DNA of 64,000 nucleotides, taken from assembly GCF_009914755.1 (NCBI RefSeq), contig NC_060930.1; one strand, 5' to 3'. Position numbers and translations under genes: made by a program. The stretch's first letter is position 1. Each line of letters starts with the position of its first letter. Below are positions 7,383 to 9,485 of this stretch, in pieces. The notes beneath the pieces are model-generated. The model did not search any database, had not been told where the DNA came from, and saw nothing but the letters and a program-made list of their open reading frames with translations. This stretch comes from the human T2T-CHM13v2.0 reference genome, Homo sapiens.

Positions 7383-7854
7383 CAGTGTTCCTAATATTGG
7401 AGCATGCATCGGAATGGCCTGGAAGGCTTTTAAAAGCACACTGGCCAGGCGTGGTGGCTCACGCCTGTAATCCCAGCACTTTGGGAGGCCGAGGCGGGTG
7501 GATCACGAGGTCAGAAGATCGAGACCATCCTGGCTAACACGGTGAAACCCCGTCTCTACTAAAAATACAAAAAAATTAGCCAGGCCTGGTGGCAGGCACC
7601 TGTAGTCCCAGCTCCTTGGGAGGCTGAGGCAGGAGAATGGCGTGAACCCGAGAGGCGGAGCTTGCAGTGAGCCGAGATCGTGCGACTGCACTCCAGCCTG
7701 GGCGACAGAGCGAGACTCCGTCTCAAAAAAAAGCACACATTGCCGGGCCCCACCAAGAGCTGCTGCCTGTCAGTCTGGGGTGGGGCCTGAGACTGTGCCC
7801 ACTCTCGGGTGGTGCTGAGGCTCTGGCCTGGGCACCGTATTTGGAGAATCACTG
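7383..7854. mobile_element. MER5A-like hAT-Charlie MITE interrupted by the AluY; a second MER5-like fragment follows to ~8040
   Basis: cagtg...gagaatcactg termini, internal gggccccacc and ctggggtggggcctgaga motifs. Confidence 0.7.
7443..7732 (+). mobile_element. AluY in TBXT intron 6 (antisense to the pre-mRNA)
   Basis: AluY diagnostics gatcacgaggtc, gagaccatcctggctaacacggtg, gaatggcgtgaacc, gagcttgcagtg. TSD aaaagcacac at 7432-7441 and 7729-7738. Short A-tail. Confidence 0.95.
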
Positions 7855-8248
7855 GTGTAGTCAGGAATTCTTGAGCCTGGCTGCCCATCATTGTCACTTT
7901 AGAGAGGTTCATAGAAGACTCAAACCTGGGCTCTCCTCCTAAGGATCGACCATGGTTCTGTGGAGAGGCCCAGGAATCTGTCATTTTCAAAACCTGGAGC
8001 AGCAGCTCTGAGGCCTGTGCAAGGATGCAAGCCTCTGATCTGGGTGTCCGTGGTTGTTCCGCCAGCAGCGGCAGTGGCGGAGACATAAATTGAAGATCTT
8101 CTCTTGAGCTACTAAAAAACTGGGCTTGGGTATGTGTTCCAGAAAACCGTCTCCATTTTTTTAGATTCTAGACTCCTGCAGAATGCCTTTCCCAAAGTGG
8201 TCTTGCAGCCACCCACCAACCCCTGGCAGAATGAGGCTGAGGACTCAC

Positions 8249-8422
8249 TTGGAGAATTGTTCCGATGAGCATAGGGGCTGGGGTAGGGTGAGGACCGGTG
8301 GCTCCTCAGGGTTGGGTACCTGTCACAGCTGTGCGTGGAGGGGAGGGAGAGGGCACCTCCAAACTGAGGATGAGGATTTGCAGGTGGACACAGGGTGCTG
8401 GTTCCAGGAAGAAGCCACCCCC
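8249..8422 (-). CDS. TBXT: TBXT coding exon 6 (174 nt; 177 nt if the upstream AG is used, start 8425); symmetric and skippable in frame
   Basis: GWLLPGTSTLCPPANPHPQF...HRNNSP. Acceptor cacagcag|GG, donor CAA|GTGAGT. Phase 1-1, length divisible by 3. Confidence 0.97.
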
Positions 8423-8464
8423 CTGCTGTGAGAAAAGACAGTGCTGAGTAACCTGCATTAGTGC

Positions 8465-8672
8465 TCCCTCCATCTCTCCAGAGAGCAGAGCCCAGGCCAG
8501 GGACTGTCCCTCCATCACTCCAGAGAGCAGAGCCCAGGCCAGGGACTCTCCCTCCATCACTCCAGAGAGCAGAGCCCAGGCCAGGGACTCTCCCTCCATC
8601 ACTCCAGAGAGCAGAGCCCAGGCCAGGGACTGTCCCTCCATCACTCCAGAGAGCAGAGCCCAGGCCAGTGAC
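8465..8672. repeat. 42-bp minisatellite, ~5 copies (tccctccatcactccagagagcagagcccaggccagggact[g/c])
   Basis: Near-identical units with period 42, also seen as 14-aa repeats in the ORF track. Confidence 0.97.
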
Positions 8673-9187
8673 TTCCCACCTTCCCCTCAGGGGCCCCTGA
8701 TGGGGGAAGCACCCTGAGTGTCTCATACTTAGGACACAGTCTGCCTCACAAGACATCTGAGGCCATCAGCCCCACACTCACTACCACAGGTAACCCAAGG
8801 CTTCCAATCCTGTGTGTACCTGAGTAAACCCAGGAGCCTGGCCTCAGGCAACCTAAGCTGTTTCCTCCTGAGAATCCTCTGGATTGCTTTGAGATCTACT
8901 ATTCCCCAAGGCAGGTGAGCTTTCCTCCACTGAGCATGAATACAATGTAACCACAGGCAGAGAGCAGGTGAGAGATGCTGAGAGAGGTGGGGTGGTGCTT
9001 AGACAAGGGTGCCCTCCCCTTCTCCTCCTGCCACCCACAGAGACGGGAGGTGCCTTCCTAGCTGGGGGTAGACCCTTTTACTGCTCACTCTCCTGGTTTA
9101 AGCTCCCCCCATTCTCCCCAGGAGAATCAGAAAGTTCTTCCAAGACTCCCCTTCCTTCCTCTAAAACTACAATTTCTTGTCCACTCA

Positions 9188-9485
9188 TTTTTTTCTCCTC
9201 TGAGACTGGGAGTTTCATTCTGTCACCCAGGCTGGAGTGCAGTGGTGTGATCTTGGCTTATTGCAATCTCCGCCTCTCAGGTTCAAGGGATTCTCATGCC
9301 TCAGCCTCCCAAGTAGCTGGGATTACAGGCGCCCACCATCATGCCTGACAATTTTTGTATTTTTAGTAGAGATGAGGTTTCACCATATTGGCCAGGCTGG
9401 TCTCTAACTCCCTGATCTCAAATGATCCATCCAACTTGGCCTCCCAAAGTGTTGGGATTACAGGCGTGAGCCACCGTGCCCGTCC
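9188..9485 (-). mobile_element. AluSx-type element in TBXT intron 5 (sense to the pre-mRNA), inverted relative to the AluY
   Basis: Reverse-complement full-length Alu with an eroded tail and AluS-type diagnostics. Confidence 0.93.

What the first reader, a model, noticed from the sequence alone, without database searches (positions are those of the whole stretch)
7443..9485. Inverted AluY / AluSx pair loops out the in-frame TBXT exon 6 (hominoid tail-loss splicing switch)
Seen: AluY (+, 7443-7732, intron 6) and AluSx-type (-, 9188-9485, intron 5) lie tail-to-tail ~1.45 kb apart around exon 6. That exon is 174/177 nt and phase 1-1, so skipping deletes 58-59 aa after the T-box without a frameshift (377-aa product). 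The AluY is the younger element, has an intact TSD and sits inside a MER5A. In the pre-mRNA the two Alus can form a ~280-bp stem that traps exon 6. Established: this is the mechanism reported by Xia et al. (Nature 2024), linking a hominoid-specific AluY to TBXT-delta-exon6, tail loss and neural-tube defects in mice. It is the key system in the window, but it is already published.
Basis: partly seen in the sequence, partly recalled or inferred. Interest (0 to 1): 0.95.

Follow-up and report, generated by a model that had tools for sequence, protein, structure and literature searches.

The report
Known TBXT Alu pair around exon 6
Two oppositely oriented Alu repeats flank an in-frame exon of the human tail-development gene TBXT and can pair in the RNA so that the exon is skipped; the sequence shows this clearly, but it is the system already published in 2024.

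Summary
A 290-nt Alu (+, 7443-7732, TBXT intron 6) and a 298-nt Alu (-, 9188-9485, intron 5) lie tail-to-tail, 1455 nt apart, around exon 6 (8249-8425). The exon is 177 nt, or 174 nt through a CAGCAG acceptor, and is phase 1-1. Skipping it removes 59 residues (245-303) after the T-box and leaves an open 377-aa frame. Folding predicts a 245-252-bp intermolecular stem (-440.6 kcal/mol; shuffles -205.8 +/- 5.6) that encloses exon 6. Removing the intron-6 Alu in silico drops the enclosing pairs from 385 to 11. The intron-6 Alu is the least decayed of the 28 Alus in the window. This is the AluY/AluSx1 system of Xia et al. (Nature 2024). Their supplementary list holds this Alu sequence at the matching hg38 position, and they showed that deleting either Alu abolishes exon-6 skipping in human ES cells. 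Not testable here: absence in monkeys, the MER5A name, and the subfamily names. The link to tail loss rests on mouse isoform-dosage models; mice carrying the human Alu pair kept normal tails. Verdict: real, correctly interpreted, already known. A 42-nt x 5 tandem repeat just upstream of exon 6 is the only unremarked feature.

The parts
7443..7732 (+). Young Alu (AluY in Xia et al.), 290 nt, in TBXT intron 6. It is antisense to the gene, 516 nt from exon 6, with an 8-A tail.
   Evidence: 17 CpG, 5.2% divergence, youngest of 28; 7SL matches on + strand. Listed as a hominoid-specific insertion in the Xia supplement. A 2026 preprint gives 290 bp, ape-specific and fixed in sampled humans (passages).
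7432..7441 (+). Left copy of the target-site duplication AAAAGCACAC; the right copy is at 7729-7738.
   Evidence: Read directly from the sequence.
9188..9485 (-). Older Alu (AluSx1 in Xia et al.), 298 nt, in TBXT intron 5. It is sense to the gene, 762 nt from exon 6, with a decayed TSD.
   Evidence: 5 CpG, 10.0% divergence; 7SL match on - strand.
8249..8425 (-). TBXT exon 6, 177 nt (174 nt from the alternative acceptor at 8422), phase 1-1. It encodes residues 245-303, after the T-box.
   Evidence: plus the hub annotation.
7733..9187 (-). The 1455-nt loop closed by the predicted Alu-Alu stem. It holds exon 6 and both of its splice sites.
   Evidence: 245 Alu-Alu pairs, all enclosing exon 6, outermost 9482:7446, innermost 9199:7727; control without the Alu.
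4693..4972 (+). Third Alu (AluSq2 in Xia et al.), in intron 7. It is a weaker and more distant alternative partner of the intron-5 Alu. The paper proposes it for the minor delta-exon6-7 transcript.
   Evidence: cofold with the intron-5 Alu -387.9 kcal/mol, 233 intermolecular of 237 pairs; 4215 nt away; paper passage.
8464..8677 (.). 42-nt x 5.1 tandem repeat in intron 5, inside the loop. It ends 38 nt upstream (transcript sense) of the exon 6 acceptor. No role in the switch has been shown.

Best explanation
This is the published TBXT AluY/AluSx1 inverted-repeat splicing switch. TBXT is transcribed from the minus strand. The intron-5 Alu (9188-9485) is made first. After exon 6, the intron-6 Alu (7443-7732) is made in the opposite sense. 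The two anneal into a long, imperfect double-stranded stem of about 250 bp. The stem closes a 1455-nt loop that holds exon 6 and both its splice sites, and it brings the exon 5 donor near the exon 7 acceptor. A fraction of transcripts therefore join exon 5 to exon 7. Exon 6 is phase 1-1, so the product stays in frame: 377 aa, with an intact T-box and without residues 245-303 of the regulatory region. Shown here: the anatomy, the reading frame and the predicted thermodynamics. Shown in print: each Alu is needed for skipping in human ES cells, the AluY is absent from monkeys, and delta-exon6 dosage shortens or removes mouse tails. Inferred: that the duplex forms in vivo, and that this insertion caused or started hominoid tail loss.
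For: Anatomy. Frame: (436 aa to 377 aa, one stop at the end). T-box ends in exon 4. Pairing: cofold of the two Alu RNAs gives -440.6 kcal/mol with 252 of 252 pairs intermolecular. The two separate folds sum to -203.2, and 100 dinucleotide shuffles of the AluY RNA give -205.8 +/- 5.6 (minimum -218.6). In the MFE fold of the 3830-nt exon5-to-exon7 pre-mRNA, 245 Alu-Alu pairs form and all enclose exon 6; only 9 and 1 bases of the two Alus pair elsewhere. With 7442-7738 removed in silico, the pairs enclosing exon 6 fall from 385 to 11, none from the intron-5 Alu, which then folds on itself with 71 pairs. The AluY is both the closer and the better partner compared with the intron-7 Alu: 1455 vs 4215 nt, -440.6 vs -387.9 kcal/mol. 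Print: deleting AluY 'almost completely eliminated' delta-exon6, and deleting AluSx1 'was sufficient to repress' it. A non-Alu 297-nt inverted pair in mouse Tbxt also causes skipping. The AluY sequence is in the list of insertions present in six hominoids and absent in pig-tailed macaque or marmoset. A separate 2026 preprint finds it ape-specific and fixed in sampled humans.
Against: No direct evidence of the duplex in vivo was seen. The words PARIS, VNTR and minisatellite do not occur in the main text of Xia et al., and 'editing' occurs only in references on genome editing. My folds are MFE predictions of naked RNA, with no co-transcriptional kinetics, proteins or helicases. The stem is broken into 29 helices, the longest 25 bp. 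For the phenotype link, homozygous mice with the human Alu pair made little delta-exon6 in the tailbud and had no obvious tail phenotype; the authors call that model inconclusive. They also say further changes may have stabilised taillessness. Opposite orientation of two neighbouring Alus is in itself a one-in-two event.
Confidence: 0.93

Rival explanations
1. The splicing switch is real, but it was not the main cause of hominoid tail loss. The delta-exon6 isoform would be a modest by-product, and taillessness would come chiefly from other changes.
For: insASAY mice with the human Alu pair showed no obvious tail phenotype and low delta-exon6 in the tailbud. The authors write 'may have contributed' and allow that additional changes stabilised the phenotype. 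[quoted passage not shown]
Against: Delta-exon6/+ mice and insRCS2/delta-exon6 mice lose or shorten tails in step with isoform ratio: 19 of 19 compound heterozygotes were tailless. The insertion's phylogenetic distribution coincides with tail loss.
Confidence: 0.3
2. The intron-6 Alu promotes skipping on its own, for example by binding proteins to the antisense Alu or by slowing the polymerase. Pairing with the intron-5 Alu would not be needed.
For: Antisense intronic Alus carry U-tracts and cryptic splice sites that proteins such as hnRNP C bind (passage of the Ku preprint).
Against: Deleting the intron-5 Alu alone also removes delta-exon6, and an unrelated 297-nt inverted pair has the same effect in mouse cells. 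The Alu lies 516 nt from the exon and its U-tract is only 8 nt.
Confidence: 0.04
3. Exon 6 is skipped because of its own signals (tandem CAGCAG acceptor, the 42-nt repeat array 38 nt upstream), and the Alus are bystanders.
For: The acceptor is a NAGNAG, and a repeat array abuts the acceptor region. A genome-wide preprint reports that exons with a weak acceptor and a strong donor are most prone to loop-out skipping (abstract passage).
Against: The published Alu deletions abolish skipping while leaving these signals in place. The donor AAG|GTGAGT reads as a consensus match (the consensus itself is recalled). These signals are better seen as possible modifiers than as the cause.
Confidence: 0.03

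Closest known systems
TBXT AluY-AluSx1 exon-6 loop-out (Xia et al., Nature 2024, PMC10901737)
   Same: It is the same locus and the same elements: gene, introns, orientations, spacing (1455 nt here, 1,448 in print), in-frame exon 6, and the distal AluSq2 in intron 7. The Alu sequence in the paper's supplementary list maps to window 7455-7729.
   Different: Nothing of substance. Boundary choices differ slightly: 290 nt here and in a 2026 preprint against 297 in the paper; 242 identical of 301 columns here against 228 of 297 in the paper.
Inverted-repeat Alu pairs that loop out exons genome-wide (bioRxiv 10.1101/2025.03.07.642063; Genome Biol 2026, PMC13019944)
   Same: Intronic Alus in opposite orientation flank a skippable exon. 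AluY-AluSx1 is one of two subfamily pairings reported as enriched (passages).
   Different: Those are statistical surveys with RT-PCR checks. The TBXT pair is the founding case with Alu deletions and mouse phenotypes.
Inverted Alu pairs that drive back-splicing into circular RNAs
   Same: The same geometry: complementary Alus in the introns on both sides of an exon. Xia et al. raise this as a possibility.
   Different: No circular exon-6 RNA was seen in anything I read, and none can be tested with these tools.

Membership tests
Alu SINE (7SL-derived dimeric element) | Two 7SL-related monomers about 135 nt apart, total about 300 nt | tested here: met
   Internal direct repeats at 135-nt spacing in both elements (D2, D3). 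Sub-threshold Metazoa_SRP matches to both monomers of the + Alu and to one monomer of the - Alu, 35.6-53.5 bits against a gathering score of 70. 72-90% identity to 27 other copies in the window.
Alu SINE (7SL-derived dimeric element) | 3' A-tail and flanking target-site duplication | tested here: met
   8-A tail and a 10-nt perfect TSD for 7443-7732. T-run (minus strand) and a decayed TSD by my own reading for 9188-9485.
AluY versus AluS subfamily assignment | Subfamily-diagnostic positions against curated consensus sequences | tested here: inconclusive
Relative age is clear. The 7443 copy shares 5 rare departures from the window majority with the copy at 62299-62574. The names AluY and AluSx1 come from the paper.
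Inverted-Alu loop-out exon-skipping switch (TBXT type) | Opposite orientation in the two introns flanking one exon | tested here: met
   plus the hub annotation of exons.
Inverted-Alu loop-out exon-skipping switch (TBXT type) | Complementarity long enough to out-compete each Alu's own fold | tested here: met
   Gain of -237.4 kcal/mol over the separate folds, against -14.3 +/- 4.7 in 100 shuffles. 245 pairs within the 3.8-kb context.
Inverted-Alu loop-out exon-skipping switch (TBXT type) | The enclosed exon can be skipped without a frameshift | tested here: met
   177 nt, phase 1-1; skipped CDS of 1134 nt with a single terminal stop.
Inverted-Alu loop-out exon-skipping switch (TBXT type) | Removing either arm abolishes skipping | not testable with these tools
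   Published for human ES cells. Here only an in-silico removal was run.
Inverted-Alu loop-out exon-skipping switch (TBXT type) | The young arm is hominoid-specific | not testable with these tools
   No primate genomes are held. It is listed among insertions present in six hominoids and absent in macaque or marmoset, and re-found in a 2026 preprint.
MER5A DNA-transposon fossil around the AluY | Similarity of both flanks to the MER5A consensus, continuous across the insertion point | not testable with these tools
   No repeat library. The right flank matches a chr5 copy (76% over 82 nt, E 2.6e-6). The left flank matches a chr2 copy (78% over 85 nt). Only in the chr5 copy do both flanks align collinearly, and the left match there is weak (40 nt, E 0.014); it was lost under other scoring.

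The most novel reading that the evidence does not exclude
A locus-specific 42-nt x 5.1 tandem repeat (8464-8677) lies inside the Alu-closed loop and ends 38 nt upstream of the tandem CAGCAG acceptor of exon 6. It might tune how often the loop-out leads to skipping. If its copy number varies among people or apes, it could modulate the delta-exon6 ratio and with it neural-tube-defect risk. It could also help explain why the Alu pair alone gave little skipping in the mouse tailbud. Nothing I read mentions it.
Probability: 0.07. Interest if true: 0.5.

Novelty: already known. Interest (0 to 1): 0.12.

Why it matters
The system is a textbook-grade case of a single retrotransposon insertion changing a body plan through RNA structure rather than through a splice site or a coding change. 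That matters for human evolution and for neural-tube defects. It is fully in print, however, with experiments that no sequence analysis can add to. It also separates what is shown (splicing dependence on both Alus) from what remains inference (the duplex in vivo, causation of tail loss).

Tried and rejected
(1) Naming the repeat around the AluY. Two searches of the window's own genome with the flanks and local BLAST gave one old copy each on chr5 and chr2 and only weak continuity across the insertion point. The name MER5A stays untested.

(2) Subfamily assignment by diagnostic positions. This was not possible without a library. I used CpG retention and divergence from the window majority instead.

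(3) The 42-nt repeat as a hominoid-specific co-factor. In part 390 of supplementary file 2 of Xia et al., the only entry inside the array is a single T at hg38 166162867 (window 8669). The array is therefore not a hominoid-specific insertion by their criterion. That file is marked as cut when stored, and I read one part of 400.

(4) Paper search for TBXT + VNTR. 10 papers hold both terms and 8 were listed. Judged from titles and abstract starts only, none is about a TBXT intronic repeat; I opened none of them for this.

(5) Rfam hits to mir-1268 and mir-3135 inside the Alus, and SCARNA7 at 6024-6164 (28.3 bits against 65), are all far below gathering scores. I took them as Alu-derived or chance matches.

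(7) Not attempted: partition-function or co-transcriptional folding, a fold that includes intron 7, and splice-site strength scoring (no model on hand).

Full report
**1. What is in the sequence**

The window stretch 7200-9700 holds an Alu on the + strand at 7443-7732 (290 nt). It starts GGCCAGGCGTGG and ends in a run of eight A.
- It is flanked by a perfect 10-nt duplication, AAAAGCACAC, at 7432-7441 and 7729-7738, with one extra T at 7442.
- A second Alu lies on the - strand at 9188-9485 (298 nt), with its T-run at the left end. The similarity I see between its two flanks, a decayed duplication, is my own reading.
- The repeat finder reports three collinear inverted blocks between the two elements: 161 nt at 80%, 63 nt at 86% and 58 nt at 86%.
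- blastn of the first Alu against the whole window gave 49 rows. From these I took 28 near-full-length copies.
- Inside TBXT (3458-14457) there are exactly three copies: 4693-4972 (+), 7443-7732 (+) and 9201-9475 (-).
- Rfam at E <= 0.01 gave 10 matches in 3400-14500. Five are sub-threshold 7SL matches (35.6-53.5 bits, gathering score 70) on the monomers of these three elements, each on the expected strand.
- The tails of the two Alus face each other across 1455 nt. The + Alu is 516 nt from exon 6 and the - Alu is 762 nt from it.

**2. The exon**

I used the hub's coding parts for these checks.
- All internal junctions are AG/GT.
- Exon 6 (8249-8425) is 177 nt, starts and ends in phase 1, and has the acceptor ...TTTTCTCACAGCAG|GGG. 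This tandem CAGCAG explains the annotated 174-nt form.
- The full CDS is 1311 nt (436 aa), the 174-nt form gives 435 aa, and the CDS without exon 6 is 1134 nt (377 aa) with one terminal stop.
- The first differing residue is 245 and the last 133 residues are shared, so residues 245-303 are lost.
- Pfam T-box matches fall in exons 1-4 (profile positions 1-25, 27-110, 116-165 and 166-181 of 182). Exons 5, 6, 7 and 8 match nothing at E <= 1. The deleted piece therefore lies after the DNA-binding domain.
- Exons 6 and 7 together are 307 nt, not a multiple of three. This agrees with the paper's statement that delta-exon6-7 shifts the frame.

**3. Pairing**

All folds use the gene's own (minus) strand.
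- Cofolded, the two Alu RNAs give -440.6 kcal/mol with 252 of 252 pairs intermolecular. Their separate folds sum to -203.2.
- 100 dinucleotide shuffles of the intron-6 Alu against the real intron-5 Alu give -205.8 +/- 5.6 (minimum -218.6), with at most 121 intermolecular pairs.
- The intron-7 Alu is a weaker partner: -387.9 kcal/mol, 233 intermolecular of 237 pairs. The two same-sense Alus gain only -7.6.
- In the MFE fold of the 3830-nt exon5-to-exon7 RNA (-1563.5 kcal/mol), 245 Alu-Alu pairs form, from 9482:7446 to 9199:7727. All of them enclose exon 6. Only 9 and 1 bases of the two Alus pair elsewhere.
- The stem is 131 G-C, 99 A-U and 15 G-U pairs in 29 helices, the longest 25, 23 and 21 bp.
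- As a control I removed 7442-7738 in silico. The fold then has 11 pairs enclosing exon 6 instead of 385, none from the intron-5 Alu, which folds on itself with 71 pairs.
- These are predictions for naked RNA and are not evidence of a structure in cells.

**4. Relative age**

Among the 28 aligned Alus, the 7443 copy has the most CpG (17) and the lowest non-CpG divergence from the window majority (5.2% of 250 sites). The 9188 copy has 5 CpG and 10.0% divergence, and the 4693 copy has 5 CpG and 13.8%. The 7443 copy shares 5 rare departures with the copy at 62299-62574. 'Younger' is therefore supported. The subfamily names could not be tested for lack of a repeat library.

**5. The flanks**

- The right flank (7733-7872) matches one other place in the genome (chr5, 76% over query positions 41-122, E 2.6e-6).
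- The left flank (7350-7442) matches one other place (chr2, 78% over query positions 7-91).
- In the chr5 copy both flanks align collinearly, but the left match is only 40 nt at E 0.014. It was lost under other scoring.
- The genome search skips common words, so these counts are lower bounds.
- The Alu thus seems to sit in old dispersed repeat sequence. 'MER5A' is untested and does not occur in the main text of Xia et al..

**6. What is in print**

A search for TBXT + AluY + tail-loss found 18 papers, of which 15 were listed.

Of Xia et al. 2024 (PMC10901737) I read the following; I did not see the figures.
- The abstract and outline, passages, and sections 5, 9, 11 and 13 in full.
- The list of supplements, two word searches in them, and part 390 of supplementary file 2.

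The paper states the following.
- An AluY in intron 6, more than 500 bp from exon 6, is paired with a simian-shared AluSx1 in reverse orientation in intron 5.
- An RNAfold model supports the pairing.
- Deleting AluY 'almost completely eliminated' delta-exon6 in differentiated human ES cells, and deleting AluSx1 'was sufficient to repress' it.
- A minor delta-exon6-7 transcript is ascribed to AluSx1-AluSq2 pairing (distances 1,448 and 4,188 bp).
- The human pair, or an unrelated 297-nt inverted pair, causes skipping in mouse ES cells.
- The stem identity is 228 of 297. My global alignment gives 242 identical of 301 columns.

Supplementary file 2 carried no caption in the listing. From its format and the methods I take it to be the hominoid-specific insertion list.
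- It has a 275-nt entry at hg38 6:166161652-166161927 and a 5-nt GCACA entry at 166161634.
- With the offset 166,154,198 these are window 7455-7729 and 7436-7440, that is, the Alu and part of its duplicated target.
- I compared the printed letters with the window by eye only.
- The criterion was presence in six hominoid assemblies and absence in pig-tailed macaque or marmoset.

Other papers, read as passages only:
- A 2026 preprint (10.64898/2026.04.30.722098) re-identifies a 290-bp ape-specific AluY in TBXT and reports it fixed in sampled humans.
- Two genome-wide studies and a preprint on Ku cite the case as established.
- I saw no paper that disputes it.

**7. Limits of the published link to tail loss**

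- Homozygous mice with the human Alu pair showed no obvious tail phenotype and made little delta-exon6 in the E10.5 tailbud. The authors call this model inconclusive.
- The tail phenotypes come from delta-exon6 alleles and from a 220-bp non-Alu inverted pair. All 19 insRCS2/delta-exon6 mice were tailless.
- The discussion allows for further stabilising changes.
- The main text holds no word for duplex mapping or RNA editing.
- The mechanism of skipping is therefore well supported. Duplex formation in vivo and evolutionary causation are inferred.

**8. A feature not remarked in what I read**

- A 42-nt unit is repeated 5.1 times at 8464-8677 with 96% matches. It ends 38 nt upstream of the exon-6 acceptor and lies inside the loop.
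- The genome search found it only at this locus.
- It is not a hominoid-specific insertion in the part of the supplement that I read; only a single T at window 8669 is listed there.
- In the MFE fold it pairs mostly with itself: 114 bases, against 17 with exon 6 and 26 with the rest of intron 5.
- Whether it affects splicing is unknown.

**9. Verdict**

The novelty is nil, because this is the published system itself. No primate genomes and no repeat library were available, so hominoid specificity and the repeat names rest on the literature.

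Noticed in passing
window 8464-8677: A 42-nt unit repeated 5.1 times (96% matches) in intron 5. It ends 38 nt upstream of the exon 6 acceptor and lies inside the Alu-closed loop. It was found only at this locus in the genome. It is not listed as a hominoid-specific insertion in the part of the Xia supplement that I read.
   Followed up: partly
window 4693-4972 (+): A third Alu, in intron 7 (AluSq2 of the paper), with a near-perfect TSD GAAAGACTCA[T/G]ACCA. 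It has the same orientation as the AluY, and the two flank exon 7, so they form a direct-repeat pair. It is inverted relative to the intron-5 Alu (cofold -387.9 kcal/mol).
   Followed up: partly
window 8420-8428 (-): A tandem CAGCAG (NAGNAG) acceptor at exon 6. It accounts for the 174/177-nt exon forms (435 and 436 aa).
   Followed up: yes
window 7577-7628 (+), 9300-9351 (-), 4826-4877 (+), 4894-4953 (-): Sub-threshold Rfam matches to mir-1268 and mir-3135 lie inside the three Alus (34.8-58.1 bits; gathering scores 80-83). They are most simply Alu-derived look-alikes and not microRNA genes.
   Followed up: no
window 6024-6164 (-): A weak Rfam match to SCARNA7 in intron 7 (28.3 bits against a gathering score of 65, E 0.0015). 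It is probably chance.
   Followed up: no
window 13963-14005: A GC-rich 10-nt unit (CGCCCCAGCC) repeated 4.3 times between the TBXT first coding exon and the LNCDAT start, within the annotated enhancer 13795-14389.
   Followed up: no
window 7300-7442 and 7733-7900; L002 (chr5), L008 (chr2): Both flanks of the AluY resemble old dispersed copies elsewhere in the genome (76-78% identity), so the Alu landed in an older repeat. The family name could not be checked.
   Followed up: partly
whole window: There are 28 near-full-length Alu copies in 64 kb but only three inside the 11-kb TBXT gene. Exon numbering depends on the transcript: the Ensembl 9-exon transcript used in the Xia supplement calls the two introns 6/8 and 7/8.
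   Followed up: no
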